NCBI GenBank assembly: GCA_025999215.1
Contig: AP024679.1
Span: forward strand, 36,007-100,006
DNA: 64,000 nucleotides
Reading direction: 5' to 3'
Source: Candidatus Dojkabacteria bacterium
Lineage (GTDB): Bacteria > Patescibacteriota > Dojkabacteria > J137
Shown: in pieces, positions 7,765-50,803 of the stretch
Layout of the letters: each line of letters starts with the position of its first letter
Position numbering within the stretch: the stretch's first letter is position 1
Program-made: the position numbers and the translations under genes
The notes under the pieces: generated by a model
Told to the model about the DNA's origin: nothing
Database searches by the model: none
Seen by the model: the letters and a program-made list of their open reading frames with translations, nothing else

Positions 7765-9313
7765 ATTCCCTATTCTTAAAAACAACTTTGTTTTAATAGT
7801 ATCATTGTTAGCTTTTTTTGTATTTAGTTTTATAAATTTAAAATATCCTGGTTTACAATATGATGAAGTTTTATTTGTAAATGCCGCAAGAGGAGGAGTA
7901 GGAAATGATAAAAGTTTCATTTATAAAGAATTTTTTGATATACCTGTTTTCTTAATGCAATATATTGGAGCTTTAAAATCTTATATTTATTTTCCTATTT
8001 TTTATATTTTTGGAGTTAATGTTTACACTATTAGAATTCCTACAATAATTATCTCTTTATTTTCTCTTGTAATCATTCATAAAGCAATTAAAAAATTTAC
8101 AGATCAAAAGCTTGCAAATCTTGTGGTGCTTCTTTTAAGCATTAACTCTGTTTTTATTAACTTAACAAGAACTGATGTTGGTCCAAATACGATTGAATTT
8201 TTTCTAAAATCGATAGCAATATTTTTACTTTTGAATTCCAAAGGTTTCAAAAAGTATTTTCTAACATTAATAATATTTTTGCTAGGTATTTTTAACAAGT
8301 TTAATTTTATATGGTTTGTAAATGCTTTTTTGGTAGTAACAATATTCTTAGAAATTATAAATTTTGATTTTAAAAAGCCTAAAATTAAACTGTTGAAAAG
8401 AATTGTTCCATCTACACTAATTTGGTTTGTAAGTGTATTTTTTCTGTTTAGACTTAACTCATTAAATAATAATGAAAGCAGTCTGATTTTTAATTTAAAT
8501 TTAATTCCTAAGTTTTTTAATCATATTATTTCTATTGTTGATCAAACTGCTTTTTATGAATATGCAATTAACAATTCTCAAATGTGGCTTAAAGGCCCTT
8601 ATTTGCTTATTGTATTTATTACAATAAGCTTGTCTATTTTAAAATTGATTAAAAATCGAGATTTACAAGATAACATAGTGAAACTCTATGTTATATCATG
8701 GATTTACTTTATTTTACATTTTGTTCAGATTTTAGTTACTCCCAAAGCTACTGCCCCATGGCACTGGTTCACAATTGAACCTTTTTTTACTTTTATTTTA
8801 AGTATCTCAATTTATATTAATTTTAAAAATAAAAAATTATATTTGCTAAATTTTATATTGTTAGTATTCATTCTTTTTTACTTATTGCTTCAAATTTTTT
8901 ATCATCAAGCGAATTATAAAAATGCTAGAAACCCCATCTGGAGCGAGGAAATTTATAATTTAATGGATTTTGCTAGTAATTCTAATAATAACTTTGTATC
9001 CATTGATTGGGGCTTTCACAATCAATTTTTAATAACAACATCTAACAATTCATCGAAATTTGTTGATTTGAGTTTTATTCTTAATTCGAAAAATGTTGAT
9101 AGTACAACTATCCAAAACTTACTTAAATTAGCAAGTGAAGAAAATAATTATTTTGTATTACACTCTGATAACTCTACAATTTTTAAAAATTCAAGGAATA
9201 ACTTTTTTCAAATTTTCGATAAAAATGGTGTAAAATTAGTCTTAGTAAAAACTTTTTATGATAATGAAAAGCCAATTTATGAAATATACAAAGCATCTGT
9301 TACAAACAATTAA
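7751..9313 (+). CDS. polytopic membrane glycosyltransferase, GT-C fold (PMT/ArnT-like GT39/GT83 type)
   Basis: About 12 predicted hydrophobic helices. There is an N-terminal loop YDEVLFVNAARGG and an overall architecture like dolichyl-phosphate-mannose protein mannosyltransferases. The ORF track start at 7697 overlaps the preceding gene, so an internal ATG at 7751 was chosen. Confidence 0.5.
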   Translation: MKLSKFPILKNNFVLIVSLLAFFVFSFINLKYPGLQYDEVLFVNAARGGVGNDKSFIYKEFFDIPVFLMQYIGALKSYIYFPIFYIFGVNVYTIRIPTIIISLFSLVIIHKAIKKFTDQKLANLVVLLLSINSVFINLTRTDVGPNTIEFFLKSIAIFLLLNSKGFKKYFLTLIIFLLGIFNKFNFIWFVNAFLVVTIFLEIINFDFKKPKIKLLKRIVPSTLIWFVSVFFLFRLNSLNNNESSLIFNLNLIPKFFNHIISIVDQTAFYEYAINNSQMWLKGPYLLIVFITISLSILKLIKNRDLQDNIVKLYVISWIYFILHFVQILVTPKATAPWHWFTIEPFFTFILSISIYINFKNKKLYLLNFILLVFILFYLLLQIFYHQANYKNARNPIWSEEIYNLMDFASNSNNNFVSIDWGFHNQFLITTSNNSSKFVDLSFILNSKNVDSTTIQNLLKLASEENNYFVLHSDNSTIFKNSRNNFFQIFDKNGVKLVLVKTFYDNEKPIYEIYKASVTNN

Positions 9314-24140: not shown

Positions 24141-24438
24141 TTAATTAATAAAATGTCTTTCAATAATTTTTTATGCTAAGGTTTTATTAACCAAGATCTA
24201 CCTATAAAAATTTTTAAACTCTTTTACACTTTTAACATAATGTAAATCCTTGATATATAGTCTAAGATGTTCTTCTGATCTATTGTAGATCTTTCTTATT
24301 AAGATTTCAGCATAACTCACCAACGAGTTCACAACTGTTTTCTCCAACTAATGACTTATCGACATAATTTATTGCTTTTTCAATTTTTTGATTTGTATTC
24401 TTTAATTTTTGCACTTGATACCAAAAGCCAGGTTCACC

Positions 24439-25365
24439 TCAAAATTGAATAAAGATTTTGGCCAGGGCAGAGAGTTGCATCTTCTGTTTTTGTGCCCTAC
24501 AACATTTTCTTGCCATTCTCAATTCAACTTCCCAATAATCACTTAATCCTGGCAAGGAGTAGCCTGTAAGGAAGCAAGGGACTTTGATGAAGGGTTTTCC
24601 TGCTCAAAATCCCCAATCAAAGCTATACCTAAAGTTGCATAATTTGGTGGAGAATGAGCTCCAGTTACACCCAAACTACCAGCACGACCTTCATAAATAT
24701 TTCCTTCTTTATCGATTAAAAAGTTGTATCCAATATCTTGCCAAAGTTCATGCGGTTCATCACAATCTTGGTTAGATGGATCATAATACCCCAGAATTAT
24801 TTACACATCTAATTTTATGATATTCATAAATAGCCCTAACTGCACTAGATAAATCATCAGTTGTGTTTTGAAAAACAGTATGATGAATTACAAAATAATT
24901 TATATGTGGAGCAATATATGGTTGCCAAAGAGAATTAGTTGGTGCCCCCCAATCTTCTCGTAATTTTACATCTAATCCTAAATTTCTAAAAAATGATCTT
25001 TTAATATCTGGATCAGGAAAATTATCAGAAGTTAAGTATCTTCTATCTTTAAAATAATGTATTTTCAAGTTATGTCCACTCAAAATTTGAATTTCACTAA
25101 CATCTGAAGAGTATGGAAATAACTCTGAAACAAATGATGAACTGGCATCTTGATTAAATTCATAATCACCATGTAAGTGATCAAATATTTTTTCATTTCC
25201 ATCTTTGTAAATTATTTTAAATTTTACTTTACCCCAATCTATTGCTTCATTAGAAGAAAAACTAAATGCAATGATTTCAGAGTCGTTTGAATGGATACTC
25301 TGTGCAATGACTGTAGAAATTAAAATTGAAAAAAATGAAATAGCAAGAATCAAAAACTTTCTCAT
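24439..25365 (-). CDS. N-acetylmuramoyl-L-alanine amidase (Amidase_2 / PGRP fold) with signal peptide; two frameshifts
   Basis: A signal peptide is followed by an N-terminal domain and then YFVIHHTV...VRAIYEYH. After a shift at about 24780 it reads WQDIGYNFLIDKEGNIYEGRAGS...GAHSPPNYATLGIALIGDF...ATPC. After a further shift at about 24500 (CC versus CCC) it reads PGLSDYWEVELRM. Confidence 0.7.
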
Positions 25366-25371
25366 AAATTA

Positions 25372-26498
25372 TTATTGCAATAATTTCAAAGTTTTTAAAC
25401 TTAATCTATCATAACTAATTTGATCAACAACTTTTTGTGCATTATACAATTTTTCTTTAGTTAACTCTGGGTTTTTAAGTAAAGCCATTATCTGATTAGA
25501 GATGCTTGTTTTATTTAAATTTTTAATTTTTACAACTTCATCTTGAAAATCTTCAAATTGTGGTATATATGAGGTTATAACAATAGCATTTGATGCTAAA
25601 CATGTTCGTACCGCTCCACTCGCTGATTCACCAACATGCTGGTAAGGTAAAACAAAGAAAGTCAACACATGCTTGCGTAAATTTCTAATCTCTTCTCGTT
25701 CTAAAAAATCTGTTATAAAAACTACTCTATCTTCTATATTCTAAACTTTTAGCTAAATTTAAAGACTTTTTTATATTCTGATTGCGCATAAATGTTATTA
25801 GGACTCAACTGCATTTAAACCTAAGAACATAAAGCTTGAGGGTATTGATTCCAAATTTCTTCTAAAAGCTTCAATAACCAGTAGGAATGTTTTTGTTTTT
25901 ATTAAAAAGTCCATGCGTCCCAATTATCGGATAATACTCACTCAAACCAAGATCCTTTTTAACTTTAAATTTTGCTCTTGGATAAAATAACTTTTCACCC
26001 AAAGGGATAAAAACTACATTATTTAGTTTTTTGCTCATATAAACTTGATCGTTTTTATTATGAACAATTATTTTATCTGCAAGTGATAAATTTTTACATG
26101 ATTTAGTCAAATCAAACGTATCTGATCTAACTGCATGTAGCTCTAAAATAATTTTTATGTTTAGTTTTTGTAAATCTGAAAGCAACTTATCTAGCGTTTC
26201 ACTTGAGTAGTAAGCTCCAGAATGATATTGAATGTGAACTGAATCAAAATTTTCATTTTTAATTTTTTTGGTTACATCATTAAAATCATTCTCCCCCATA
26301 TTCCAAAGTCTAACAACATTTGAATTATCTCCTCTAACTCTATCAGCAATATCTTTATTTGCGATGATTAATAAATTTTTAAAGACTTTTTCGCATGATT
26401 GATAAAGAAGTCTAGTATCTTCTGCAATACCATCTTGAGAATTGTATGGAGAAATTACCGCATGTTTACTGTTTTTTATATTTAACCAAATTGGGCAT
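25372..26498 (-). pseudogene. GT4 glycosyltransferase, heavily fragmented (at least 4 frame changes in 25690-25870)
   Basis: N-terminal part MPNLVKYKKQ/HAVISPYNSQDGIAED...; linker LVIEAFRRNLESIPSSFMFLGLNAVES; C-terminal part DRVVFITDFLEREEIRNLRKHVLTFFVLPYQHVGESASGAVRTCLASNAIVITS. Confidence 0.55.
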
Positions 26499-26512
26499 CA
26501 AATCAAAAATAT

Positions 26513-27611
26513 TTATAATTCTTTCAGCAACATTCGCCCAAGATATTTCATCAGCTTTCCTTTTCGCTGAGAGCTACATATTTCATTTATGTTTTCAATT
26601 TTTCGTTCATAAATTTTCCTCATTATTTCCGAGAGATTTTCTACTGACGGTTCTGCCCATCTAGCTCCAACATTTCCCAGATTCTGATTGATAAGCTAAA
26701 TCAACTTCAAAATCAAGTAAAAATGCGCTATTTTCGTCTACAAAGTCTAAAACTCCACCATACCCAGTTGTTATTAGTGGTACTTCACAATAAATTGTTT
26801 CAGCCATTGGCAAACCAAATCCTTCTGCTCGTGATGGATAAACGCAACAATCTGAATTTTTAGTTAAAAATTTCATTTGTCCGGGTGTCAAATCAGTTCT
26901 ATCTATTACCTCGACTTCAGGAGCATTCTCATTTTGCAATTCTTTCAAAAGATTTGGAACCATGTTGTTTGGATTAGGAAAAGTTTTAATTATTAACACA
27001 CAATCATCATTTTTATCAAATGTTTTAAAATACGCTTTCAATAAAACATCTACTCCTTTTCTTGCTCTGCCTGTGCTTGCATGAAAAAATTTAAAGTTTT
27101 TTTTGGTTTTTAGTTCAAATTTCTCTGGTTTAGCATTAATAAAATCATTATCAATTCCTTCAGAGATATTAAATATAGGTACTCTAATACCTGAATCTTT
27201 CATTATGTGATATACAAACTTACTTGTTACAAACATTAAATGCGCATATTCGTTAATTTCATCAACAAGTTTCTTTGGAAAAATACTTTCTTCCCAAGCA
27301 ATGTATGGAATAATTATTTTTGAAGGTATTTCACTTAAACCATATAAGCCATCAGTATCTCTAGGAGTATTATTAAAAATAGCAATGTCACTTTGTTTTC
27401 TTTCTAAAGAAATCAAATTTTTTAATTCCGATTGCTCAATTTCTTTTTTTGTAGGTAAATAATCAATTCTATCTTTTGGACACCAAAGCCAAACATTCAA
27501 ATTTCTGTATTGAGAGCTCAAGGCCAAAGCTAAATTTCGATTTACTTGAGCCAAACTATAATTTGTGAAATACGGACCAACTATCTGTACGGATTTACTT
27601 TGCAAGTTCAT
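26513..27611 (-). CDS. GT4 glycosyltransferase, one frameshift near 26660
   Basis: Carries KGVDVLLKAYFK...CVYPSRAEGFGLPMAETIYCEVPLITTGYGGVLDF. The tail SESG then continues in another frame as ...ARWAEPSVENLSEIMRKIYE. Confidence 0.7.
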
Positions 27612-34775: not shown

Positions 34776-36041
34776 ATGATAAAATTAATCATGGCGAAAG
34801 ATTTAAAATTCACAAAAGAAATTTTAGATAATGGATTAACCCTTGTAGTCGTAGAAGAAGAAAATTCACCAACAGTCACTGTAACAACTATTTATAAAGT
34901 CGGCTCCAAAAACGAACACCCAGAGCACACTGGATTTGCTCATCTTTTTGAACATCTGATGTTTGGAGGTTCTAAAAATATTACTAACTTTGATAAAGAA
35001 CTTGAAAAAATCGGAGGTTCATGTAATGCATTTACTGCTCAGGACTATACCAATTATTACACAAGAGCTCTCGCTTCAAACTTAGAAGTTCTTCTGTGGC
35101 TTGAATCAGACAGAATGTTAGAATTAAAGTTAGACCAAAAAAGACTGGATGTTCAAAAAGGAGTGGTCATTGAAGAATTCAAAGAAAGATATCTAAATAG
35201 TCCATACGGAGATTACTGGCTTGAAGTTTATCCTCTTGTGTTTGGTGAAAATAATGCTTATGGTTGGCATGTGATAGGTAAAAGTTTAGAAGACATTAAA
35301 AAATCTAATTTAGATGATGTAAGAGATTTTTTTTATACTTTTTATAGACCGGATAATGCTATTCTAGCAATAGCAGGGGGTGTTGATACCAAAGAAACTA
35401 TTGAACTTGTTAAAAAATGGTATTCAGACATTCCAAAAGCAAAGAAACAAAGCTATGAAGTTGGCAAACCTCAACCCATCAAAGGTATCAAAACCAAAAC
35501 TGTTTATTCTGATGTACCGAATGATGCTCTTGGAATTTTTTTCAATGCTCCTAGCGTTCGTGACAAAGACTATTTTTCTTTTCAGATTTTAATAGAAATT
35601 TTAGGTGGTCGCTCAACAGCAGTACTACCTTACACTTTGGTGAAAGAAAAGGAACTATGCATTTCTTTTGGTGTCGATGAATTTGAACATTTAGATCTAA
35701 ATGCTCTTTGTTTGACTACGACAATTAATTCAAACGCGAATATATCTCAAGTTGAAGATGAAATTTGGACTATTTTAAAAAAGGTATCCGATTTAATTAC
35801 TCAGGAGGAACTTGATCGGACAATTAACAATAAGCTCTTTGCAAAAGAATATGGTTTAATGACTAACCTTGCAAAAGCCAACATGATTGCTTTTTATGAG
35901 TTGATAGGTGATATTGATAGAATAAATAATTTTTATGATATGTACAAAAAAATTAAACTCAATGATGTGAAAGATTTAGCTAATAGAATAATTTCAGAAC
36001 AAAACTATGCAGTACTTTATTATCGCGCCCAAAATGCTTGA
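34776..36041 (+). CDS. M16 family zinc peptidase (pitrilysin-like, active subunit)
   Basis: Inverted zincin motif HLFEHLMF (HxxEH) and the M16 N-terminal fold signature. Confidence 0.8.
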   Translation: MIKLIMAKDLKFTKEILDNGLTLVVVEEENSPTVTVTTIYKVGSKNEHPEHTGFAHLFEHLMFGGSKNITNFDKELEKIGGSCNAFTAQDYTNYYTRALASNLEVLLWLESDRMLELKLDQKRLDVQKGVVIEEFKERYLNSPYGDYWLEVYPLVFGENNAYGWHVIGKSLEDIKKSNLDDVRDFFYTFYRPDNAILAIAGGVDTKETIELVKKWYSDIPKAKKQSYEVGKPQPIKGIKTKTVYSDVPNDALGIFFNAPSVRDKDYFSFQILIEILGGRSTAVLPYTLVKEKELCISFGVDEFEHLDLNALCLTTTINSNANISQVEDEIWTILKKVSDLITQEELDRTINNKLFAKEYGLMTNLAKANMIAFYELIGDIDRINNFYDMYKKIKLNDVKDLANRIISEQNYAVLYYRAQNA

Positions 36042-37344
36042 TAGATCCAAAAAACCTAAAACAAAAAACTATTTTGAATTGCAAAATATCGTACCAGAGG
36101 TTTTGTGTGATGATAAGGTTGAAATTTTTTATCATGATCAAACAAAAGAAGATGTGATTGTTTTGAAATTATACTATCCACTTAATGCTCTCGACATTCC
36201 AAACGCCCTTGTTACAAGTTATCTGGCAAAGGTTTTACTTGAATGTGGCACTCAAAAATATAGTTTCAAAGAATTATTAGACGCATACACTTACCATGGT
36301 ATTTCCTTGTCAATGTTCTCTAATCCTTTTGCCTTGGAGATAAACGGAGAATGTCTAACATCTAAATTTTCAGAACTTCTACACTTTTTAGATGAAATAA
36401 TTTATCAACCTAGATTTGATGTTAAAGAATTTAAAAAAATAATGTTGAGGGCAAAGCAGAATTTTAAAATAAACATGAATGATAATAGTTATCTGGCTGA
36501 CGTTCTGATGGGGCAAAAAATGTTTGGAAATAACAATCCTTATGGGTATTTTCTAAAAGAAAAAGATTACGATGACATTGCAATTGATCAATTCAAAACT
36601 CTTCACGAGGAAAGAGTAATTCCTAGAACCCCAACTGTTAGCATAGCTGGAAATTTAAGCGAAAAGCAACTTAAACAACTTCAAAAATTTTTAACTGAAA
36701 GAGCAAGTAAAAAAGTTCCTTTTGACACAGGAATTAAATTTACAAAACCTGCTACAAACAAAAAGTTGTCACAAAAAATTAAAAAGAAAGCAACCCAAAC
36801 TTCAATTAGAAGTTTTTCTATTATTTCAAATATAGATTGCGAAACAGAAGAATTTTTTAATTTAAAAATTACTAATTTTATTTATGGTGGATCTTTTTTC
36901 AATTGTAGATTAATGCAAACTCTCCGCGAAGAAAAAGGCTACACATACGGAGCACACTCTTGGTTGTCAGACTATAACTCTCATGCTTTAGCTTTAGAAA
37001 TCAGCACTGAAGTAAAATCTGAAACAACACAAGATTCAATTAAAATAATTTTTGATGAAATGATCAATCTATCTCATAACAAATTGCAAAAAAACCTAAT
37101 TCCTATGGTAAAAATCAAACTAAAGACAAAGCTAGCAGATAGCCTTTCTCATGCATTCCGGCAACTTGATTTTTATATTGAACGAAAACTTAAAAATATT
37201 GATCCTCAGGAATCTTTAAAGAATTATGTAAGAGCAATAGAAAATTTTAATCACGATGTGCTTGTACAAACAGCGGAGAATTTTTTGAGACCGGAAAATT
37301 TCTATACGGTCTTAGTAACTCCTCAAAAAGTTTCGTTGGATTAA
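36007..37344 (+). CDS. M16 family peptidase, second (likely non-catalytic M16B-type) subunit
   Basis: Paralogous M16 fold without an HxxEH motif. It overlaps the first M16 gene by 35 nt, a pair organisation typical of two-subunit M16 enzymes. Confidence 0.65.
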   Translation: MQYFIIAPKMLDRSKKPKTKNYFELQNIVPEVLCDDKVEIFYHDQTKEDVIVLKLYYPLNALDIPNALVTSYLAKVLLECGTQKYSFKELLDAYTYHGISLSMFSNPFALEINGECLTSKFSELLHFLDEIIYQPRFDVKEFKKIMLRAKQNFKINMNDNSYLADVLMGQKMFGNNNPYGYFLKEKDYDDIAIDQFKTLHEERVIPRTPTVSIAGNLSEKQLKQLQKFLTERASKKVPFDTGIKFTKPATNKKLSQKIKKKATQTSIRSFSIISNIDCETEEFFNLKITNFIYGGSFFNCRLMQTLREEKGYTYGAHSWLSDYNSHALALEISTEVKSETTQDSIKIIFDEMINLSHNKLQKNLIPMVKIKLKTKLADSLSHAFRQLDFYIERKLKNIDPQESLKNYVRAIENFNHDVLVQTAENFLRPENFYTVLVTPQKVSLD

Positions 37345-41798: not shown

Positions 41799-41820
41799 AA
41801 TGTAACTTTAACTAAAACGA

Positions 41821-42912
41821 TTATACTTCATTTTTTACAAAATTCTGGAGAATATTATAGAACTCAATCAAACTATCTATATCTACCCATTCCTCGTCGC
41901 TTGCAATTCCACCTCCGATTGGTCCAAACTCTACTGCTGGTATCCCTATACGTGCGTAGTGCCTTGCATCGGAAGAACCCATAGCAGAATAAAATTTTTG
42001 TTTTCTTTTTGTTATTTGCTCAGTGATAGATTTTAATTGTTGCAAATAAGCATTATTTTCTTCAACATTTAGACACGGTTCGTCAACTACAATCTCAACA
42101 CCATCCGCCCTACTTTCTTTTTAATTTTTTCTATCAAACCTTCTTTATCTTCTGGTAAATATCTCAAATCCAAACTTAAAATACATTCATCAGGAATTTT
42201 ATTGAAAGCTTTATTGTTTGTTTCAATGTTACTAAAATTTACAGAAGTTACCCAGACATTTTTTTCTTGAGTTTTTGGAATAGGAAACAATTTCAAAATT
42301 CTTCTCAATTGCTTCACTTGCTTTGCTGGATTGAATTTAGCCCAAGCCAAGGATAAGCTCCATGAGCTGTTTTTCCTTTAAATTTTAGTTTAAGCCATAC
42401 TATTCCTCTTGCCCTTTATTGACTATATCAAAATTTGTAGCTTCACCTGCTATCACAAACTTTGCTCGAACGCCTTGATCAATCTGATATTTCGTTCCAT
42501 AAAACCCTCCCACCTCTTCGTCAGTAACTATTTGTAGGGCAACTGAAGTGTTGGTTTTGTGAGCTATATCTCTAAAAGCATAAACCATACTAGCAATATT
42601 GCCTTTCATATCCATGCTCCCAATACCATAAATTTTATTATCTTCTATTCTAGCCTGATATTTTTCAAATTTTGCAGGTATGACATCTAAGTGCCCGTTA
42701 AGGATTAAATCAAAGTTTCTGTGTCCTGTTGATTTGTTGTGAATCAGTAAACTTTTGTAGCCATTACTTTCAAACTCTTCGATCGTATAGTCAGTTAGCT
42801 CACTTTTAACAATTTCTAAACTATTTTCTAATTCGGCAAAATTAGTAGGGTTAGTTTTTATTTCAATGAGTTTAACTGCAAGGTCGATTATTTTTTGTTT
42901 TATTTGTTTCAC
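41821..42912 (-). CDS. M20 family metallopeptidase (ArgE/DapE/CPG2-like), split into three ORFs by two frameshifts
   Basis: Piece 1 carries GHLDVIPAK...YGIGSMDMKG. Pieces 2 and 3 carry the C-terminal dimerisation and catalytic part (...GSSDARHY...IPAVEFGP). Gaps lie at about 42060 and about 42370. Confidence 0.65.
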
Positions 42913-43482: not shown

Positions 43483-44955
43483 TTATGCTTCTAATTGATT
43501 AACATCTCTTGAATGCGTTTGTTGGTTTGGAACATCCTTTCTTACGTTCGTCATATCAACAAAAAATTTAAAAATCTCGAAAATAATGTGTTGCAAAGCT
43601 TGTAACAAAGCTTCTTTAGATTCAAATTTATTTTCCTTAATTCGGTTTATCGCATCTTGGTGAATATTAATGATCATAGAAACATATTCGCTCCTTTGAT
43701 TATCGTCTAATCTTATGTAGTGACCTGTATTTTCTACATAGCCGTTTATTTGAGATAAATCAGGGATTTGAAGAGCGCCAGCATCCCTAAAAATATCATT
43801 TACAATTTCTAAAACTGCCACTACGACATCTTTGCTAGGTAATAAGAGAGAAACATCTTCTTGCCACTTTTCTTGAATATATGGTTGTTCTGGTGGGACT
43901 CCTCTCAGCGTAAGTCCATGTGTTTGGGCTTGGTTTATGAAATCTTGCAGTGGATTTATCATGAAGCCTCCAAGATCTTCCATCCAAAAAACATCAACAT
44001 CAAGCATTGCATTTAATGCCATGAAAATTCCTGGGTATATGCCTGAATAATAAGTTTCAGCAGTTGGTCGACATAAAACAGTTTCGTTACTCCTTATTGC
44101 TTCAATTAGTGCGTTCTGATCAACTGTCTCAAACTCATTATTTCCATCTGAATATGTGTTCATTTTCCGGAAAACTCGACCTTGACTTACTACATAATAT
44201 TGTGTTGTTGTACCTTCCCCATAAATCACAAATCCAAATGGTTTATTTGGTAGCGAAACTTGGTCATAATTCTCAGTTGGAGGAGAACTTAGTCCTTCTA
44301 ATATATTTAAGACTGCATCCTTGAAAAAAGCGTCTAAATCTAGTTCTGGTACTTTACAAACAGGAATCATTTCTACGTACATATTCATAAGTTTGGTATA
44401 AAAATCTTTTAAGTCCAAAATTTCATCAGAGTTATTATATTCGGTATCTTTACCCAACAAAGTTTTTGCCATATTATTAGCATTTTTTGGAACAACAGAA
44501 TGATTATGCAATGGGTGACCTGCTTTCCCTCCATTTTCATGAAGACTTTTATGCTGGGATATCCTAGGCCTTACACTTTTATCTTGGATGTAAGGTCTGT
44601 CTGATGGCATATTGAATTTTAGAACTTGTGGAATTATAGTTCTATACTTCTCTATATTTTGTGACGAAAATATATCATTAAGATCTAGAACTATATATTT
44701 TGCGCCAACTAATGAAGCTGCAATTGCGCCTGCTATATTTCTCACATTTGGAACATTTAAGTGCTGGACTGATATTACTACTGGATCTGTTTCACCATTT
44801 AATATTGTTTGAATATATTTTCCAAAATGTGACCGTACTAAATCACAATACTCTCTAATACCAAACATATTCTCCATAAATTCATTAATAATCTTAATAC
44901 GCTCGCCTCTATTTTCATAATTTGGCTCTGATTCATTAAAGTAATTTAGCTCCAT
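43483..44955 (-). CDS. hypothetical protein (490 aa), no recognisable domain; composition is less AT-biased than its neighbours
   Basis: Long intact ORF. It is preceded by the promoter / structured leader / terminator described below. Confidence 0.4.
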   Translation of the reverse strand: MELNYFNESEPNYENRGERIKIINEFMENMFGIREYCDLVRSHFGKYIQTILNGETDPVVISVQHLNVPNVRNIAGAIAASLVGAKYIVLDLNDIFSSQNIEKYRTIIPQVLKFNMPSDRPYIQDKSVRPRISQHKSLHENGGKAGHPLHNHSVVPKNANNMAKTLLGKDTEYNNSDEILDLKDFYTKLMNMYVEMIPVCKVPELDLDAFFKDAVLNILEGLSSPPTENYDQVSLPNKPFGFVIYGEGTTTQYYVVSQGRVFRKMNTYSDGNNEFETVDQNALIEAIRSNETVLCRPTAETYYSGIYPGIFMALNAMLDVDVFWMEDLGGFMINPLQDFINQAQTHGLTLRGVPPEQPYIQEKWQEDVSLLLPSKDVVVAVLEIVNDIFRDAGALQIPDLSQINGYVENTGHYIRLDDNQRSEYVSMIINIHQDAINRIKENKFESKEALLQALQHIIFEIFKFFVDMTNVRKDVPNQQTHSRDVNQLEA

Positions 44956-44985: not shown

Positions 44986-45009
44986 TAAAAAATCTCCCTT
45001 TCGGGAGAT
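44986..45009 (-). terminator. rho-independent terminator (stem UCUCCC-GAAA-GGGAGA followed by UUUUUU) located 30 nt upstream of the 43483..44955 start codon
   Basis: Perfect 7-bp inverted repeat ATCTCCC/GGGAGAT at 44992-45009 with an A6-7 run at 44986-44992 on the plus strand, which is a U-run on the minus strand. Confidence 0.5.
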
Positions 45010-45091
45010 TAATATTTATTTACCATCTCCCCTACCTCTAGATATTCACTAGAGATAAGATGATATTTGAGCAGATGGTAAAGTTTTTCAT
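44986..45091 (-). ncRNA. candidate small structured RNA or cis-regulatory leader (~106 nt), containing a 17-codon mini-ORF (MKNFTICSNIILSLVNI)
   Basis: Minus-strand sigma70-like promoter TTGACA-17nt-TAGAAT (plus coordinates 45097-45125). Predicted transcript GUGUCAUGAAAAACU[UUACCAUCU]GCUCAAAUAUCAUCUUAU[CUCUAG]UGAAUAU[CUAGAG]GUAGGGG[AGAUGGUAA]AUAAAUAUUAA[UCUCCC]GAAA[GGGAGA]UUUUUU. It has a 9-bp outer stem, a nested 6-bp hairpin and a terminator hairpin followed by a U-run. Confidence 0.35.
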
Positions 45092-45125: not shown

Positions 45126-45189
45126 CACATTTTGCTCTAAAACTCAAAACATTATTAACAAATTATGCTTTTTAATTTATACTTTTATA

Positions 45190-48171
45190 ATGATCTCAGA
45201 AAGTTTAAGGAAAATAGTCAAAAAATCTAACATCCTTGCAATTTTATTTGCATTAGTTGCAATTTTTTCAGTAAGCAATATTTCGAGTCAAATAGAAGAA
45301 GGGAGAATTATACCTTTCGGGATACTCAACAATGTTTTTGCTGAATTTTCTCGGTCTGCACCAAACAGCACGAAACTTGCTAAAAATTTATCAACATCAT
45401 CAAATATCCAAGACCAATCGGATAGATGCCAAATTGTTGACCCAAATAGACCTGATATTTTAACTGCTTGGGAATACGAGGGAGTCAGTGGCGCTCAAAT
45501 TAAAGGAGATAATATTGCTGGAGCTAACCCTGGAGTTTCTTATGGAGCAGGCTTTGATGCGCCCAAAGATGAGACCGTTAGAGATTACGCAAGTAGTCTC
45601 GGAATGAGTTATAATCTTGCTATATTTAGTGCACCAAATGAAGTTGGCAATGCGATTGCATTTGTGAATGCCAACATTGATGCTGGATTCATACCCATCG
45701 TAAGGCTTTGCGTTGCAGTTGCTGATTCATGCCAATTTAATAGCCCAAACGATGTAATTGGTTTTTATACAGCGCTTCACGATGGAGCTAACGGAGAATT
45801 TATAGCTATGGTTGGACCAAATGAGCCCGGAACTGGTGAAGATGGTTACATTGAAATGAATGGATTTGGCGGAATCAATTCTTATGCTCAAATAATAAAT
45901 TTTGTAAACGAAGCTGCTACAGGACTTCAAAAGTATAGAAGCATTAATGGAGGAAAAATGTATTTATCCCCTGGAGCTTTTAACCTAACCAATCCAATAA
46001 ACCGTGATGTATATGAGTATCTCTACAATCCATCAAACCCAAAGCTCAAAATTAATTTGTTTGATTATCTTATGGGAAATGTCTATGCTCAAGGCGAGCC
46101 TGCTGTTAAAAATGTGCCCTACCCTTACGCAACTTACAGAGATGGAGAAAACCATGATGGAAATGGACTTGGTAATTTTGCGGAAGAAAATAATATTCCT
46201 GTGATTTTGACAGAATTTGGCATTTTCAAAGAAGCAGGTGATAGTAAAACAGTTCTTTTAAATGAAGCTATAGAATCTTTTAAGTTATTTTGCGCAGATG
46301 AAACAATTGCTGGAGTGTTGTTTTTTCAATCATTTTTAAATGACGATGGAACAGTTTTAATAAGTGATATAGAGCAAAGAAAGGAATTTCATGGGTTAAC
46401 CAAACAAGAACATAGCTTAATAATTGGAGACTGTACGAAATCTAGTCCATTTAAAGATTGGGCATGGGCTAACTGTAATTTTGACTCTTGTATCTATAAA
46501 GATTATGAGTATGATCCAAAATCAACTGCATCAGCTTGTGGTGTTGAAGATAAACCTTTAACGGGTGATGGTAAACCTGCACTCAAAGTCGTATGCTCTA
46601 ATGGAATTTGTAGTACCAGAGCTATTAAGACTATCGATATTGGAATGCCAATTAGACATTTTGGAGGAAATAGTTTAAATGGTTCACCAACTCACCAGTA
46701 CCCATCAATTTGTAGTGAACTTTCAACTCAATTTGCAAATAAAAATTATGACACCATAAACCAATTTGCAGGTGTAATTAACATGGGTGGAACCCAATAC
46801 CCAATGCCATGGCTTGGATCGGCTATAAATTGCGCGAGCCAATTATTGCTAGCTACTCAAGAATTTGCATACCTTACACCAGATAAATATACATTTAACC
46901 CACATCCAGGAAGTAAAATTGAAGAAATCGTTAACGAAATAAACTCAGACGAAATTTACGGCATGCCATGGGAAACATACAACGGCGCTATACCAGGCGA
47001 ACCACTTTATGATGCAGCGCCAACCATGAATGAAACGCGCTCAATTATCGATGAAGCAGCAATATGCTTGATGCGCGATGAAGCAACTGATCTGGACGAT
47101 AGATTATTTTGCCTTGATAAACGAAAAAATCCCAACCAAGTATTTGCTTTCAACGATTATGATCCGTACAAAAGCGATTTAGAGTGGGAAAAGTCTACCT
47201 GCAACACAAATATGGTCTATAGAAAAGACCCCAAAAATATGATCTATGGACCTGAAATTCAAGTGTCAGACATTGAGACAGTAGAAACTATTTCTGAATC
47301 AGAACTATGTTATGAATTTGCACGCAGAAACTCAGAAGGAGTAACCTCAAAAATACTAGCAGGTGTTGATTATCCTAGGTATTTCCCTGATGGTGACACA
47401 TCTAACGCTACTCCAAATTGTCAAATAGATCGTACAAAATTTGTAAATGGAGTTTCATGTGCTGCTCTTAGTTGTTCAAGCTCTGATATTTTAAAAGGAA
47501 AATGTAAGGCTGACTTAAGGTTTAAAGATTGTTTTAACTATGTAAATTCTTCACAATCAAGTGAACATCAAATTTATTTGAAAGCAGATAGCAATGTTTT
47601 CGCGCAAGTTCCACAAGTTGAAATAGAAGGAATTTACGATGCTTTGTACTGGATGTACCTACGCACTCAAAATTCTTTCAAAAATAAAAAATTCAAAATA
47701 GTATTTAGAGAAAACATCGGAATGAATGTTGAGGTAAACTCTAAAATTAGGGATGCCAACAGAGGAAAAGATGATGCGCTTAATCCGAAATTTCCAGCTG
47801 GCGAGTCCGAAAATCTGTACGCTCAGGAATTAAACTCTTGTGAAGTGCCAGACAACATGTACTCGTATAACAACCTGCTAGCAAAAAATAGCCCAATTAA
47901 AACTCAATATCAATACTTTGATTGGCTTGGATATTTGGACATTTTGCAAGAAATACAGAAAGTTTATTTTGGTAACACTCATACTTGCCTGATATCAACT
48001 TTGAGACAAAATCTAGACTCTTTGGTACAGAGGGCAGCTCCAAATAGCGATAGAGAGTTTATTTTGGTGAGTGGTTCCGCGTTAAAAACAATGAGTTATC
48101 CCCTATTCACTTGTGATGAACTCAACTTAAGAATAGCCAAAGATCCATATTTTACGCTTATATGGAAATGA
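45190..48171 (+). CDS. large secreted protein: N-terminal TIM-barrel glycoside hydrolase of clan GH-A (GH5-like), plus a ~600-aa Cys-rich C-terminal region of unknown function
   Basis: Signal/TM ILAILFALVAIFSV. The MVGPNEPG (NEP acid/base motif) and ILTEFGIF (nucleophile motif) sit about 135 aa apart. There are many conserved Cys residues in the C-terminal half. Confidence 0.5.
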   Translation: MISESLRKIVKKSNILAILFALVAIFSVSNISSQIEEGRIIPFGILNNVFAEFSRSAPNSTKLAKNLSTSSNIQDQSDRCQIVDPNRPDILTAWEYEGVSGAQIKGDNIAGANPGVSYGAGFDAPKDETVRDYASSLGMSYNLAIFSAPNEVGNAIAFVNANIDAGFIPIVRLCVAVADSCQFNSPNDVIGFYTALHDGANGEFIAMVGPNEPGTGEDGYIEMNGFGGINSYAQIINFVNEAATGLQKYRSINGGKMYLSPGAFNLTNPINRDVYEYLYNPSNPKLKINLFDYLMGNVYAQGEPAVKNVPYPYATYRDGENHDGNGLGNFAEENNIPVILTEFGIFKEAGDSKTVLLNEAIESFKLFCADETIAGVLFFQSFLNDDGTVLISDIEQRKEFHGLTKQEHSLIIGDCTKSSPFKDWAWANCNFDSCIYKDYEYDPKSTASACGVEDKPLTGDGKPALKVVCSNGICSTRAIKTIDIGMPIRHFGGNSLNGSPTHQYPSICSELSTQFANKNYDTINQFAGVINMGGTQYPMPWLGSAINCASQLLLATQEFAYLTPDKYTFNPHPGSKIEEIVNEINSDEIYGMPWETYNGAIPGEPLYDAAPTMNETRSIIDEAAICLMRDEATDLDDRLFCLDKRKNPNQVFAFNDYDPYKSDLEWEKSTCNTNMVYRKDPKNMIYGPEIQVSDIETVETISESELCYEFARRNSEGVTSKILAGVDYPRYFPDGDTSNATPNCQIDRTKFVNGVSCAALSCSSSDILKGKCKADLRFKDCFNYVNSSQSSEHQIYLKADSNVFAQVPQVEIEGIYDALYWMYLRTQNSFKNKKFKIVFRENIGMNVEVNSKIRDANRGKDDALNPKFPAGESENLYAQELNSCEVPDNMYSYNNLLAKNSPIKTQYQYFDWLGYLDILQEIQKVYFGNTHTCLISTLRQNLDSLVQRAAPNSDREFILVSGSALKTMSYPLFTCDELNLRIAKDPYFTLIWK

Positions 48172-48309
48172 AAATTTAAAAATTACCTGCGTTACTGATT
48201 TAAGCGATGAAAGATACTCTGATGAATTAGGCGAATTTTTATGTTCCAAAGGATACGAAGTACCTGGCATTTGTGATAATTTATTCTGCCCTGTTCAAGT
48301 CAAGCCAAG

Positions 48310-50342
48310 TAAATACTGGTAACTGTCGTTGAGGACGGAATTATTGACGAAGGAGGAGTTTACGTGAAAGATTGACAAAGACGCTAAATATGTTGCCAGC
48401 CAAAGTAATGGCGGAAGTATTGTTGAACCAATTGAAAATTTTGTAGAAAAAACAGGTGCCAGTGTTGCTATAAATGCAAATTTATACAACCAATTTGGTG
48501 TTCCAGAAGGGCTGTACGGAGGGCAAGGTCAGATTTCATATGTAGTCCCCAGGTCCAGAGCGAAGTGACTACAAAATTTCAATGCTTATTGGTAATTTAA
48601 ATACTGATGCTCCGTACATAGCTGGTAATGTTGTAGCTGAACGTGATAATAAATTTTATTTAGTTGATATAAGTAAGTGGAATGCTTTGGATGCTAATAC
48701 TATTAACGCACTTACCCAAGGTACGTTAGCAGGAATAGATGTAGCAATTACCGGTTCGGCTATAGTTGGTGTAGATTCTCAAATTTATAAAGATTACACA
48801 ACAATGTCTTTAGAAGAATTTAATCAGAAACACTCATATTCTGACTACTTACAAAAAACTGTACGTACTATTATTGGATGGGATAACAGATCTAATGTTG
48901 TATTTTTAATTTTAGATAACGCAGACTTTTATACAATGCTTGAAAAGTCAGCTGAGGTAGGCATATCTTACGGAATAGTGATGGATGGAGGTGTATCATC
49001 ACAATTGTTTTATGAAAATGGATTTGAAAATGTTGATAGCAAGCTAAGAGAAAATAATCCAAAAGTTTATGATCCATCAGGTCAAGGACGTAGCGTAGCA
49101 GGTTATGTTGGAGCAATTTTAAATCAAACTTCTCAACAACTAACAAGAGCTTCCGCTACGGGCAATTTTTCGCTTATTTATCCTACAGATTATAAAGAAA
49201 TTGAGCATGAATCACTTGATTACGGTTATGAAAGATCAGAAACTTGGACGCATGCAGGACTTGATTTTGTAGGTACAAAAGGATCACCTATTTATGCATC
49301 AGCTTCAGGAACAGTTATTGTGGCTAGACCCGTAGAGCCAAACCACAACAGAGACGCTCAACCCTACGGAAATTTTGTGATGATAGAACACTCTAATGGT
49401 TATGTAACGCTTTATGCTCACTTGGATAAAATTTCGGTTAAAAAGGGTGATATTGTGCTTGCTGGAGACACGATAGGAACAATGGGTAATACTGGAAATG
49501 TATATTGTGAAGGTAACAGGCGTCCTAGTGGTCCTGATGATGATACTTGTGGTGTTCACTTACACTTTGAACTTAGAAAAAATAAAAATTGTAAATGGGA
49601 TGGTAACCCTCTAACTTCAGTCTTTGGTAGTTGTACTATGGATCCAAAACCATTTCTCTCTGGGTCAGTAAGAGGTAGACAAGTCTTTTGCGGTGTAGAT
49701 AACACTCTTAATCTTGATCAAACTGGTGTGCTTGGATGTAATTTGAACATAAAAGATATTAATGACAACCCAGATTTTGCAAAATTAACACCAATAATCT
49801 CAACTAGAATCAAATCTTACAACCTTGATGATAATTTGAGTCATACTTGGCTATATTCACCATACGAAAGTGAAGAATTATTTAACCAGATTAAAGATCA
49901 AAAATTTAATGGATCGTTTGATGCAGCAAAATTACATGCTCAATTCAGAAAAGAAGTTACAGATTTTGTAATCAGTAAATCAAAACAATTAGGAGTAAAT
50001 CCAAGATTAGCATTAACTCTTTGGATAGAAGAAAGTGGAGGAAGCGCGCTTGGCAGAGCTGCAATGGGTTGTCTATATTTCAGAGGCACTGCTCAAGAAA
50101 CATCTACTCTACCCCTTGATTATGATCCACTTGATGAAAGTTATAAACAAAAAACTTTAGATCATTTGAATGAGCAAATTGAGTGTTTAGCAAGTTATGT
50201 AAATGAATTTGATAACTTTAGAGAATTCATGTGTACATATTCTGGTGAATCTGATAGAAAAAATTGTCAAATATTTACAAACAATCCTAATTTTCCGGTA
50301 AATGTTTGTAGAATTTATAATTATCAAGAACAAAAATTCTAA
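48310..50342 (+). CDS. peptidoglycan hydrolase: phosphodiester-glycosidase (NAGPA-like) domain fused to an M23 (LytM/lysostaphin-like) metallopeptidase domain; N-terminal region frameshifted at least twice
   Basis: NAGPA-like KTGASVAINANLYNQFGVPEGLYGG...GIVMDGGVSSQLFYENG. M23 HAGLDFVGTKGSPIYASASGTVIVA...GNFVMIEHSNGYVTLYAHLD...GNTGNV...GVHLHFE. The upstream pieces (ILVTVVEDGIIDEGGVYVKD / KIDKDAKYVASQSNGGSIVEP...) lie in different frames. Confidence 0.6.
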
Positions 50343-50803
50343 TGAGTAAAACCAAGTCAAAAACAAAAGGGCGACTTTTTAGCTTAACTACTATTCTTAT
50401 GTTTAGTTTTGTTATTGCGCTTTCAGTTTTGACAGTGTTTTTAAATTTATATAACTCTAACGATACGAAGCCGCAAAACTCACAAAATGACGAAGGAATT
50501 ATCAACAACTTAAACAGAGATGAAGTGAATTTTGAAAATTTTGAAAACTTGGAAAATTACACACAATACGAGTTATTAATCAAAAATTTGCCATTTGAAA
50601 ACGATACGTTTACGGTTTCTTTAATATCTTTTGAAGATGAACAAAAACCTAAACTTTTAGTTAAAACGATTACGTTGAGTGGTAAAAGTGATTTTTCACG
50701 GTGGCTTAAAGCCTTTGGTTTGACAGAAAACGATGTAGAAGCAATTTATTCAAGCTCACCAGATAGTTCATTTGAGGGCGCATACGATGCTGAGAATATT
50801 TAA
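50342..50803 (+). CDS. membrane-anchored hypothetical protein (153 aa)
   Basis: N-terminal TM helix LFSLTTILMFSFVIALSVLTVFL. The start overlaps the stop of the upstream hydrolase (TAATG). Confidence 0.35.
   Translation: MSKTKSKTKGRLFSLTTILMFSFVIALSVLTVFLNLYNSNDTKPQNSQNDEGIINNLNRDEVNFENFENLENYTQYELLIKNLPFENDTFTVSLISFEDEQKPKLLVKTITLSGKSDFSRWLKAFGLTENDVEAIYSSSPDSSFEGAYDAENI

What the first reader, a model, noticed from the sequence alone, without database searches (positions are those of the whole stretch)
45190..50803. Secreted hydrolase pair: GH-A-clan TIM-barrel enzyme with a ~600-aa Cys-rich tail, followed by a NAGPA-M23 fusion hydrolase and a small anchored protein
The NEP and TEFG catalytic motifs with correct spacing indicate a clan GH-A glycosidase. 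Its long cysteine-rich C-terminal region matches nothing known to me. The next gene fuses a phosphodiester glycosidase (NAGPA) domain to a lysostaphin-type M23 endopeptidase, a combination that would cut both teichoic-like phosphodiester-linked sugars and peptide cross-bridges. The 993-aa ORF may also continue for about 55 Cys-containing codons in the +1 frame past its annotated stop (YGNENLKITCVTDLSDERYSDELGEFLCSKGYEVPGICDNLFCPVQVKPSKYW).
Basis: partly seen in the sequence, partly recalled or inferred. Interest (0 to 1): 0.5.

Follow-up and report, generated by a model that had tools for sequence, protein, structure and literature searches.

The report
One giant cell-wall hydrolase gene, split
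The two large "genes" are pieces of one ~1,716-residue, membrane-anchored, multi-enzyme cell-wall hydrolase found only in Dojkabacteria-type ultrasmall bacteria; four single-base indels, probably assembly errors, split it here, and about 600 residues of it resemble no known protein.

Summary
The "pair" is one gene. Every relative found (14 in 5.8 billion proteins; about 75 strong representatives in 1.84 billion) is a single 1,370-2,450-aa protein. A syntenic Dojkabacteria locus carries an intact 1,705-aa orthologue (68% identity).

In the window the frame changes four times within 392 bp (48160, ~48317, 48370, 48551). Correcting four 1-nt indels gives a stop-free 1,716-aa protein with this order:
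- N-terminal membrane anchor
- TIM barrel
- ~620-aa Cys-rich module
- NAGPA
- M23
- ~225-aa unknown C-terminal domain

A co-oriented small membrane protein follows.

At least three other genes in this window are also broken in short patches. The source is a ~11× PacBio HiFi/metaFlye genome. I therefore favour consensus error (~70%) over real decay.

Overall: a new variant of a known kind, of moderate interest.

The parts
45155..45183 (+). Candidate sigma-70-like promoter (TTAACA-17-TATACT) just upstream of the start codon
   Evidence: Consensus scan, 10 of 12 matches. The number of such sites in the region is no higher than in shuffled sequence, so this is weak evidence.
45190..50342 (+). One gene for a ~1,716-aa multi-domain extracellular hydrolase, read in three frames in this assembly (annotated ORF1 45190-48171 and ORF2 48582-50342)
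   Evidence: tblastn of the intact 1,705-aa P0002 is colinear over 45214-50330. After four 1-nt corrections the protein is 1,716 aa with no stop. The orthologue in syntenic locus L001 is intact. 12 of 13 other loci show one open frame.
45229..45276 (+). N-terminal hydrophobic segment (about residues 14-29): a signal-anchor or signal peptide
   Evidence: It is the only 19-residue window with Kyte-Doolittle mean above 1.6 in the whole reconstructed protein. A similar segment is present in all homologues. No signal-peptide predictor was available.
45415..46425 (+). Clan GH-A-like (β/α)8 TIM-barrel domain (about residues 76-412). Putative acid/base E212 (45823-45825, in GPNEP) and nucleophile E342 (46213-46215, in LTEFG).
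46426..48292 (+). Cys-rich module of unknown fold (about residues 413-1033, 24 Cys). It ends in the TCxT...FLCxxGY...C motif, which lies in the +1 frame after 48160.
   Evidence: Conserved in all homologues. Invariant motifs include NQFAG, MPWLG.AI, DE, GPE and RD, plus invariant or strongly conserved residues in the IPGIYD and DWLGY stretches. No Pfam, NCBIfam or PDB sequence hit. AF2 pLDDT 59 and no Foldseek match.
48160..48551 (+). Patch with four 1-nt indels: extra base at 48160, missing base at ~48317-48318, extra base at 48370, extra base at 48551 (next to a CCCC run)
   Evidence: Three-frame translation and homology mapping. DNA alignment to L001 shows single-base gaps at the first and last sites. 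There is no other lesion in 5,153 bp. The chance that four random lesions cluster this tightly is about 0.002 (4 x the 4.4e-4 computed).
48319..49109 (+). NAGPA (phosphodiester glycosidase, PF09992) domain, spread over three frames
   Evidence: Pfam hit in ORF2 residues 17-176, profile positions 29-166 of 169. Upstream pieces VTVVEDG...VYVK and IDKDAKY...ISYVVP align to the sequence just upstream of the Pfam-matched part in P0002. Pfam itself does not extend into them.
49248..49589 (+). Peptidase M23 (lysostaphin/LytM-type zinc endopeptidase) domain with HxxxD (HAGLD, 49251-49265) and HxH (HLH, from 49557)
   Evidence: Pfam E 2.4e-27. NCBIfam hits to the M23 domains of ActS, ShyA/ShyC, MepM and NlpD. 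Motif positions.
49665..50339 (+). Conserved ~225-aa C-terminal domain of unknown function (invariant LWxEE, YSGE and five Cys; conserved NNPNFP)
   Evidence: Alignment of seven family members. No Pfam hit at E<=10. No PDB sequence hit below E 0.3. A few stand-alone relatives exist, one labelled Gottesmanbacteria.
50342..50803 (+). Small single-pass membrane protein (153 aa). Its start overlaps the hydrolase stop (TAATG), so it is probably co-transcribed and translationally coupled.
   Evidence: 46% identical to the 151-aa gene downstream of the orthologue in L001. A 131-272-aa protein is encoded directly downstream in 8 of 10 related loci; a hydrophobic stretch lies within its first ~60 residues in seven, and further in in L010. 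No Pfam or NCBIfam hit.

Best explanation
Window 45190-50342 encodes one large exported enzyme, not two. An N-terminal hydrophobic segment exports it and probably tethers it to the membrane. Outside the cell it displays, in order:
1. a retaining-type clan GH-A glycosidase barrel (acid/base E212, nucleophile E342);
2. a ~620-residue cysteine-rich module of unknown fold, presumably disulfide-bonded;
3. a NAGPA-type glycosidase domain;
4. an M23 zinc endopeptidase;
5. a further conserved domain of unknown function.

Together these would cut a peptidoglycan-type cell envelope at several kinds of bond. The family keeps the first ~1,040 residues constant and swaps the C-terminal wall-hydrolase cassettes (M23, VanY, Amidase_2, NAGPA, SGNH esterase). 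I therefore infer that the constant part is a platform and the variable part adapts to different walls. The target is most likely the wall of a host or neighbouring cell, with remodelling of the cell's own wall as the alternative.

A small membrane protein encoded immediately downstream is a conserved partner.

In this assembly the gene is interrupted by four 1-nt indels within 392 bp. These are most likely consensus errors of a ~11x HiFi/metaFlye assembly rather than biology.

Shown: the single-gene structure, the domain identities, the GH-A fold, and the restriction of labelled relatives to Patescibacteria. Inferred: export, disulfides, substrates, the host-directed role, and the artefactual origin of the indels.
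For: Single gene:
- tblastn of intact P0002 is colinear across all three frames.
- The corrected protein is 1,716 aa with no stop.
- All homologues are 1,554-1,981 aa. About 75 representatives score E<1e-30; those matching the whole module are mostly 1,370-2,450 aa.
- L001 is syntenic (ClpB ... hydrolase, small TM protein, response regulator, GluRS, histidine kinase) and holds an intact 1,705-aa gene.
- 12 of 13 other loci have one open frame.

Domains:
- Pfam finds M23 and NAGPA. The M23 motifs are present.
- Distant barrel-only relatives give weak Glyco_hydro_cc hits.
- GH5 endoglucanases are among the best sub-threshold PDB sequence hits, and the one displayed alignment (6uje) covers the nucleophile strand.

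Variable cassettes.

Partner gene.

Artefact argument:
- All lesions are 1-nt indels, clustered (P about 0.002, derived), at about 1 per 100 bp.
- That rate equals the error rate of a Q20 read, and the source paper kept CCS reads above Q20 and assembled them with metaFlye 2.8.3.
- A value of 10.8 in Table S3, which I read as coverage, applies to this genome. A related Dojkabacteria MAG occurs in the same sample.
- M20, S8 and Amidase_2 genes in the same window are broken in similar short patches, while long stretches between them are clean.
Against: - No reads were available, so the indels could be real. In that case only the anchor, barrel and Cys-rich part would be made and exported.
- The window is 87% coding in ORFs of 100 aa or more, so errors are not uniform. 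Patchiness might instead reflect real decay of particular genes.
- No substrate is known for this GH-A family, for bacterial NAGPA domains, or for the two unknown modules.
- The barrel could act on a non-peptidoglycan polysaccharide. The top Foldseek hit is PslG, an exopolysaccharide hydrolase.
- The conserved chromosomal position across Dojkabacteria fits a housekeeping autolysin as well as it fits a host-directed weapon.
- Signal peptide or anchor status rests only on a hydrophobicity plot.
Confidence: 0.8

Rival explanations
1. The frameshifts are real. In this strain the gene is a recent pseudogene or truncated allele. ORF1 still yields an anchored GH-A barrel plus most of the Cys-rich module. 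The NAGPA-M23-C-terminal part has no start or export signal and is dead.
For: The deposited finished circular genome carries the indels. HiFi consensus is normally accurate. One other MAG (L013) also has a frame change in its orthologue. Other genes in the window are also broken, which could mean ongoing gene decay in this lineage.
Against: - Four lesions lie within 392 bp and none in the other 4.7 kb (P about 0.002).
- All are 1-nt indels. There are no nonsense substitutions, and every catalytic motif downstream is intact.
- The broken genes include a metabolic M20 peptidase and show the same short-patch pattern. That pattern looks technical.
- The gene is conserved and syntenic across the class.
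Confidence: 0.25
2. One reading: two separate functional secreted enzymes, a GH-A glycosidase with a Cys-rich tail followed by an independent NAGPA-M23 fusion hydrolase.
For: Standard ORF calling gives two ORFs, each starting with ATG. GenBank annotates the first as a 993-aa protein.
Against: - ORF2 starts inside the NAGPA domain (profile position 29 onward).
- It has no hydrophobic N-terminus.
- The 410-bp "intergenic" gap encodes homologous protein in shifted frames.
- No homologue has this split.
Confidence: 0.03
3. The same single protein, but its role is housekeeping. It is an autolysin complex for the cell's own wall growth and daughter-cell separation, not a host-directed enzyme.
For: - The chromosomal position next to the response regulator and GluRS genes is conserved in at least eight loci.
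- M23 domains score against the M23 domains of the division and elongation factors MepM, NlpD, DipM, EnvC and ShyA.
- A membrane anchor keeps it at its own surface.
- The small conserved membrane partner could be a regulator.
Against: - C-terminal catalytic cassettes are swapped among fairly close relatives (M23, VanY, Amidase_2, NAGPA, SGNH). Such swapping is more typical of antagonistic or host-interaction proteins.
- A protein of 1,700 aa or more with a large Cys-rich module is unusual for a housekeeping autolysin.
- Neither point is decisive.
Confidence: 0.35
4. The barrel is a nutritional polysaccharide hydrolase acting on β-glucan, mannan, an exopolysaccharide or biofilm matrix. The wall-hydrolase domains are accessory.
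For: The best structural neighbours are PslG, GH26 lichenase, and GH5 cellulases, mannanases and xyloglucanases. Distant relatives weakly hit Glyco_hydro_cc, a family that as I recall is GH128-like.
Against: - Structural similarity is spread evenly over many GH-A families at 10-17% identity, so it says nothing about specificity.
- Every recognisable domain fused to the barrel is a peptidoglycan-active type or a carbohydrate esterase.
- No carbohydrate-binding module for plant polymers was detected.
Confidence: 0.2

Closest known systems
Clan GH-A glycoside hydrolases (GH5, GH26, GH39/PslG, GH53, GH128, GH1 and others)
   Different: Identity to any solved member is 10-17%. There is no Pfam or NCBIfam hit, and PDB sequence E-values are 0.2 or worse. 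No single family is favoured. Four conserved cysteines lie in the barrel. The substrate is unknown. It may be an unclassified family (dbCAN was not available).
M23 peptidoglycan endopeptidases (lysostaphin, LytM, MepM, ShyA)
   Same: Pfam PF01551, E 2.4e-27. The zinc-ligand motifs HxxxD and HxH are present.
   Different: It is one internal domain of a 1,716-aa protein. It carries a Cys-containing insertion (GNVYCEGNRRPSGPDDDTCG) between the GNTG motif and HLH. Its cross-bridge specificity is unknown.
NAGPA / phosphodiester glycosidase domain (PF09992)
   Same: The Pfam hit is above the gathering score (32 bits against 25). The AINA/G motif region is present upstream.
   Different: The match is weak and covers only part of the profile. 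Bacterial members are, to my knowledge, essentially uncharacterised. In the window the domain is spread over three frames.
Multi-catalytic modular cell-wall hydrolases (for example C. difficile Cwp19, staphylococcal Atl, phage tail-associated lysins)
   Same: Several wall-cleaving activities are combined in one exported polypeptide. Cwp19 also appears among the Foldseek hits to the barrel (E about 1e-5). The rest of this comparison is from my general knowledge.
   Different: It is much larger. No known wall-binding repeats (SH3b, LysM, CWB2) were detected. Instead there is a ~620-aa Cys-rich module and a membrane anchor. Labelled relatives are confined to Patescibacteria MAGs, mostly Dojkabacteria.
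Polymorphic toxin/effector architecture (constant N-terminal platform, variable C-terminal enzymes, small downstream partner)
   Same: The N-terminal ~1,040 residues are constant and the C-terminal hydrolase cassettes are exchangeable. A small membrane protein is encoded directly downstream in 8 of 10 loci.
   Different: No secretion-system marker, Rhs/PT-type repeats or pre-toxin domains were found. The partner is present whatever the cassette type, and there is no evidence that it is an immunity protein. This is an analogy only.

Membership tests
Clan GH-A glycoside hydrolases | (β/α)8 TIM-barrel catalytic domain | tested here: met
Clan GH-A glycoside hydrolases | Acid/base Glu in an Asn-Glu motif at the C-terminal end of strand β4 | tested here: met
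   Invariant G-P-N211-E212-P in 14 sequences. It lies 4-5 residues after model strand 143-146, which is β4.
Clan GH-A glycoside hydrolases | Nucleophile Glu at the C-terminal end of strand β7 | tested here: met
   Invariant E342 (model residue 281) lies inside strand 277-282, which is β7. PDB GH5 endoglucanase 6uje aligns at this strand, though below threshold (E 0.22; 1egz at E 0.41 covers the same profile region).
Clan GH-A glycoside hydrolases | Sequence membership of a defined GH family (Pfam/CAZy model above threshold) | tested here: not met
   No Pfam or NCBIfam hit at E<=1 and E<=0.1 respectively. The best PDB sequence E-value is 0.22. Only distant relatives give sub-threshold Glyco_hydro_cc hits. 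dbCAN could not be run.
Clan GH-A glycoside hydrolases | Retaining glycosidase activity | not testable with these tools
   Needs enzyme assays on an intact orthologue.
Peptidase M23 | Match to the family profile above the curated threshold | tested here: met
   PF01551, 95.4 bits against a cutoff of 28.7, E 2.4e-27.
Peptidase M23 | Zinc-binding and catalytic motifs HxxxD and HxH | tested here: met
   HAGLD at ORF2 residues 224-228 and HLH at 326-328.
NAGPA (PF09992) | Match to the family profile above the gathering score | tested here: met
   32.0 bits against 25, profile positions 29-166 of 169. 32.6 bits in the frame-corrected protein.
NAGPA (PF09992) | Complete domain encoded in one reading frame | tested here: not met
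   About 85 residues that align to the intact P0002 just upstream of the Pfam-matched part lie in two other frames (48319-48550). Pfam itself does not extend into them. The domain is complete in the orthologue P0002.
   The first Met lies inside NAGPA. There is no hydrophobic N-terminus. The gap encodes homologous sequence. Homologues are single ORFs.
Polymorphic toxin-immunity systems | Cognate small immunity gene that co-varies with the C-terminal toxin domain | tested here: inconclusive
   A small TM protein is downstream in 8 of 10 loci whatever the cassette type. Sequence similarity to ORF3 is detectable only in L001, L002 and L015.

The most novel reading that the evidence does not exclude
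The constant ~1,040-residue N-terminal part (anchor, unclassified GH-A barrel, Cys-rich module) is a Dojkabacteria-specific surface platform. It carries exchangeable wall-degrading cassettes that breach the envelope of a host cell, in a manner analogous to polymorphic effectors. The Cys-rich module would be a new fold with its own active or binding site, marked by invariant residues within the NQFAG, MPWLG.AI, DE, GPE, RD, IPGIYD and DWLGY stretches. The small downstream membrane protein would be its regulator or self-protection factor.
Probability: 0.2. Interest if true: 0.7.

Novelty: new variant of a known kind. Interest (0 to 1): 0.4.

Why it matters
How ultrasmall CPR/Patescibacteria cells attach to and feed on hosts is largely unknown, and no Dojkabacteria host is known. 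This family is conserved, syntenic and, among labelled relatives, confined to Patescibacteria MAGs, mostly Dojkabacteria. Its members are giant surface enzymes with swappable wall-cutting cassettes, which makes it a concrete candidate for that interface.

It would also supply a probable new clan GH-A family and a ~620-residue conserved module with no known relative, both directly testable by expressing an intact orthologue.

There is a practical point too. The GenBank annotation (a 993-aa "hypothetical protein" plus a separate M23 protein) is misleading. This finished HiFi genome contains short patches of frame errors that split several genes.

Tried and rejected
- **Alternative genetic code.** TGA read-through would not explain the breaks. 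The original frame after 48171 is full of stops, and the homology moves to other frames. Rejected.
- **Programmed frameshifting.** There are four shifts in both directions, no slippery heptamers, and homologues are unshifted. Rejected.
- **Other overlapping ORF chains as further frameshifts.** ORFs 5746-11402 are three distinct proteins, judged from their sequences alone as a glycosyltransferase and two polytopic membrane proteins. ORFs 34776-37344 match two naturally overlapping M16 peptidase genes in L001. Neither chain is a frameshift.
- **Sequence searches on the Cys-rich module and the C-terminal domain.** Pfam, NCBIfam and PDB phmmer/hmmsearch found nothing.
- **Foldseek on the Cys-rich model.** No match with E<0.6, but the model is weak (pLDDT 59), so this is not evidence for a new fold.
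- **My recollection that the source genome was a Nanopore assembly.** This was wrong. The paper states PacBio HiFi and metaFlye.
- **Literature searches.** Searches for this family or for Dojkabacteria wall hydrolases found nothing relevant.
- **RNA genes.** No tRNA or Rfam RNA occurs in the window.
Full report
**1. The observation**

ORF1 contains GPNEP at residues 209-213 and LTEFG at 340-344. ORF2 has Pfam Peptidase_M23 (E 2.4e-27) and NAGPA (32 bits against a cutoff of 25). ORF1 and ORF3 have no Pfam or NCBIfam hit. The +1-frame peptide YGNENLK...PSKYW is present at 48161-48319.

The window is AT-rich (about 31% GC). By exact protein match it comes from Candidatus Dojkabacteria MAG KatS3mg085, an 862-kb contig.

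**2. One gene, not a pair**

A search of 5.8 billion proteins with ORF1 returned only eight relatives. All are 1,554-1,713 aa and nearly all carry M23 at the C-terminus. A profile search raised this to 14, all 1,554-1,981 aa except the window's own 993-aa fragment.

The closest relative, P0002 (68% identity, 1,705 aa), aligns colinearly to window 45214-50330, but in three frames:
- the ORF1 frame up to about 48165;
- the +1 frame over 48158-48583, with a short return to the ORF1 frame for VTVVEDGIIDEGGVYVK at 48319-48369;
- the ORF2 frame from 48549.

The junctions pin four single-base lesions:
- an extra base at 48160;
- a missing base at 48317-48318;
- an extra base at 48370;
- an extra base at 48551, beside a CCCC run.

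The nucleotide alignment with the intact orthologue shows single-base gaps at the first and last sites. Correcting the four positions gives a 1,716-aa protein with no stop.

P0002 lies in a locus (L001) that is syntenic with the window on both sides. The shared order is ClpB, three hypothetical genes, the hydrolase, a 151-aa protein, a response regulator, GluRS and a histidine kinase. A scan of GTDB species representatives found 16 more loci. All are labelled Dojkabacteria, Patescibacteria group or uncultured Saccharibacteria MAGs. In 12 of 13 informative loci (L001 plus 12 of the GTDB loci) the gene is one open frame of 1,460-1,990 aa or runs off the contig. One locus (L013) has a single frame change at a different place.

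ORF2 cannot be an independent gene. Its first Met is inside the NAGPA domain (profile position 29 onward). It has no hydrophobic N-terminus. The 410-bp "gap" upstream encodes homologous protein.

**3. Anatomy of the reconstructed protein**

- **Anchor (residues ~14-29).** This is the only strongly hydrophobic segment. It is a signal-anchor or signal peptide; no predictor was available.
- **TIM barrel (residues ~76-412).** See section 4.
- **Cys-rich module (residues ~413-1033).** It holds 24 Cys (3.8%, against 0.76% in nine other ORFs).
- **NAGPA, then M23.** M23 has HAGLD and HLH intact.
- **C-terminal domain (~225 aa).** It has invariant LWxEE, YSGE and five Cys, and a conserved NNPNFP stretch.

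The C-terminal half varies between homologues. They carry M23, a second degenerate M23, VanY, Amidase_2 or NAGPA. An SGNH esterase is inserted inside the Cys-rich module, between NQFAG and MPWLGSAI.

**4. The GH-A claim**

An AlphaFold2 model of residues 62-428, built with a 14-sequence alignment, is confident (pLDDT 85.6, pTM 0.84). It shows the alternating strand-helix pattern of a (β/α)8 barrel.

The invariant N211-E212-P213 follows strand β4 (model residues 143-146). The invariant E342 lies within strand β7 (model residues 277-282). That is the clan's 4/7 arrangement.

Sequence methods do not place the domain in any family:
- Pfam and NCBIfam find nothing.
- The best PDB hits are GH5 endoglucanases at E 0.22 and 0.41. 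The displayed 6uje alignment covers the nucleophile strand.
- More distant barrel-only relatives from the exhaustive search give sub-threshold Glyco_hydro_cc hits.

So the fold and the catalytic dyad are supported. Family membership and substrate are not.

**5. The Cys-rich module and the C-terminal domain**

The Cys-rich module has no Pfam, NCBIfam or PDB sequence relative. Its AF2 model is weak (pLDDT 59, pTM 0.60) and finds no structural neighbour. The fold therefore remains undetermined rather than shown to be new.

Its many invariant polar and aromatic motifs look more like a functional site than a spacer. They include NQFAG, MPWLG.AI, DE, GPE and RD, with invariant residues also in the IPGIYD and DWLGY stretches. 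That reading is inference.

The C-terminal domain likewise has no hit. A few short stand-alone relatives exist, one of them labelled Gottesmanbacteria.

**6. Size and spread of the family**

The exhaustive profile search of 1.84 billion representatives found 189 proteins with E<1e-3 and 75 with E<1e-30:
- About 50 carry the whole N-terminal module, in proteins of roughly 1,370-2,450 aa.
- A further group matches mainly the Cys-rich part.
- Weaker hits match only the barrel region, in proteins of 350-1,200 aa.

**7. The small downstream gene**

ORF3 overlaps the hydrolase stop (TAATG). It has one N-terminal transmembrane segment and is 46% identical to the gene in the same position in L001.

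In 8 of 10 related loci a 131-272-aa protein is encoded immediately downstream on the same strand. A hydrophobic stretch lies within its first ~60 residues in seven of them, and further in for L010. Sequence similarity to ORF3 is detectable only in L001, L002 and L015. It is thus a conserved but fast-evolving partner. Its role is unknown.

**8. Are the frameshifts real?**

I could not see reads, so this is not settled. Several points favour an artefact:
- All four lesions are 1-nt indels. They lie within 392 bp of a 5,153-bp gene that is otherwise intact, with every catalytic motif preserved. The chance of such clustering is about 4 × (392/5153)^3 ≈ 0.002.
- The source paper (PMC9671151) assembled PacBio CCS reads filtered only at above Q20, using metaFlye 2.8.3.
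- In the paper's Table S3 this genome has a value of 10.8, which I read as coverage. A related Dojkabacteria MAG of the same order occurs in the same sample.
- One indel per ~100 bp is what a single Q20 read would contribute.
- The same window holds other genes broken in short patches:
  - a Peptidase_M20 gene, with profile positions 1-90 in ORF 42400-42912 and 128-205 in another frame;
  - a Peptidase_S8 gene in at least three pieces;
  - an Amidase_2 gene;
  - probably a GT4 glycosyltransferase.
- Long stretches between these patches, including ClpB, GluRS and the M16 peptidases, are clean.

This patchiness is hard to explain by neutral decay. I put an artefact at about 70% and real lesions at about 25-30%.

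**9. Mechanism**

Shown: one exported polypeptide combines a GH-A-type glycosidase barrel, a NAGPA domain, an M23 endopeptidase and two conserved unknown modules. Relatives exchange the C-terminal wall-hydrolase cassettes.

Inferred: it is displayed on the cell surface, stabilised by disulfides, and cuts a peptidoglycan-type envelope at several bonds.

Cassette swapping on a constant platform, the large size, the restriction to a presumed episymbiotic lineage and the small downstream membrane partner make a host- or neighbour-directed role my preferred reading (about 40%). The conserved chromosomal position and the M23 similarity to division endopeptidases keep a housekeeping autolysin role nearly as likely (about 35%). 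A non-peptidoglycan polysaccharide substrate for the barrel is possible (about 20%).

**10. Comparison with known systems, and verdict**

The recognisable domains belong to known families: clan GH-A by fold, M23 and NAGPA. The architecture, the unclassified barrel family, the ~620-aa Cys-rich module and the C-terminal domain are, as far as the libraries and literature searches show, undescribed.

I rate it a new variant of a known kind, namely a modular extracellular cell-wall hydrolase, with interest 0.4. The domain calls and the frame suspicion were right. The "pair of genes" was not.

Noticed in passing
window 22400-25400 (minus strand): An Amidase_2-type gene and a subtilisin (Peptidase_S8) gene are each split over several reading frames. 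S8 profile positions 46-88 are in ORF 23493-23771 and 127-288 in ORF 22701-23366, and a DTG-motif piece lies in a third frame. The Amidase_2 core lies outside any long ORF, just below 24800. Fragments of a GWDGR(I/V)WVRS-repeat protein follow at 21854-22700.
   Followed up: partly
window 41799-42912 (minus strand): A Peptidase_M20 gene is broken. Profile positions 1-90 lie in ORF 42400-42912 and 128-205 in a different frame near 41800-42090. Intermediate pieces lie in other frames within about 600 bp. This is the same short-patch pattern as in the hydrolase gene.
   Followed up: partly
window 25372-27611 (minus strand): A GT4 glycosyltransferase (Glycos_transf_1 in ORF 26661-27611) appears to continue into ORFs 25871-26299 and 25372-25668 in other frames. 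It may be another frame-error patch. The two downstream pieces have no Pfam hit.
   Followed up: partly
L001-L015, immediately downstream of each orthologue: In 8 of 10 loci a small (131-272 aa) membrane protein is encoded 0-25 nt after, or overlapping, the end of the giant hydrolase gene. Its hydrophobic stretch is N-terminal in seven and further in for L010. Its sequence diverges so fast that only three loci are detectably similar to window ORF3.
   Followed up: partly
homologues P0003, P0011, P0012, P0013, P0014: An insertion of about 230 residues sits inside the Cys-rich module, between the NQFAG and MPWLGSAI motifs. In P0014 it sits further upstream. It is SGNH/GDSL-esterase-like by Pfam in four of the five; P0012 has no Pfam call. 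The insertion site is probably a surface loop or a boundary between sub-domains.
   Followed up: no
L013:9016-9405: The orthologue in another MAG (SRP141376_co3_398) also changes frame once, at a different position from the window's lesions. Long genes of this family are prone to being split in assemblies.
   Followed up: partly
window 43483-44955 (minus strand): A divergently oriented 490-aa protein has no Pfam or NCBIfam family. It is conserved in position in L001, but only at 24% identity. A bidirectional terminator-like hairpin at 44991-45010 separates it from the hydrolase promoter region.
   Followed up: no
P0155 (Candidatus Gottesmanbacteria, 341 aa) and P0154, P0156: The unknown C-terminal LWxEE/YSGE domain of the hydrolase also occurs in short stand-alone proteins. 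One is labelled Gottesmanbacteria; the other two are unlabelled. It is therefore an independent module.
   Followed up: no
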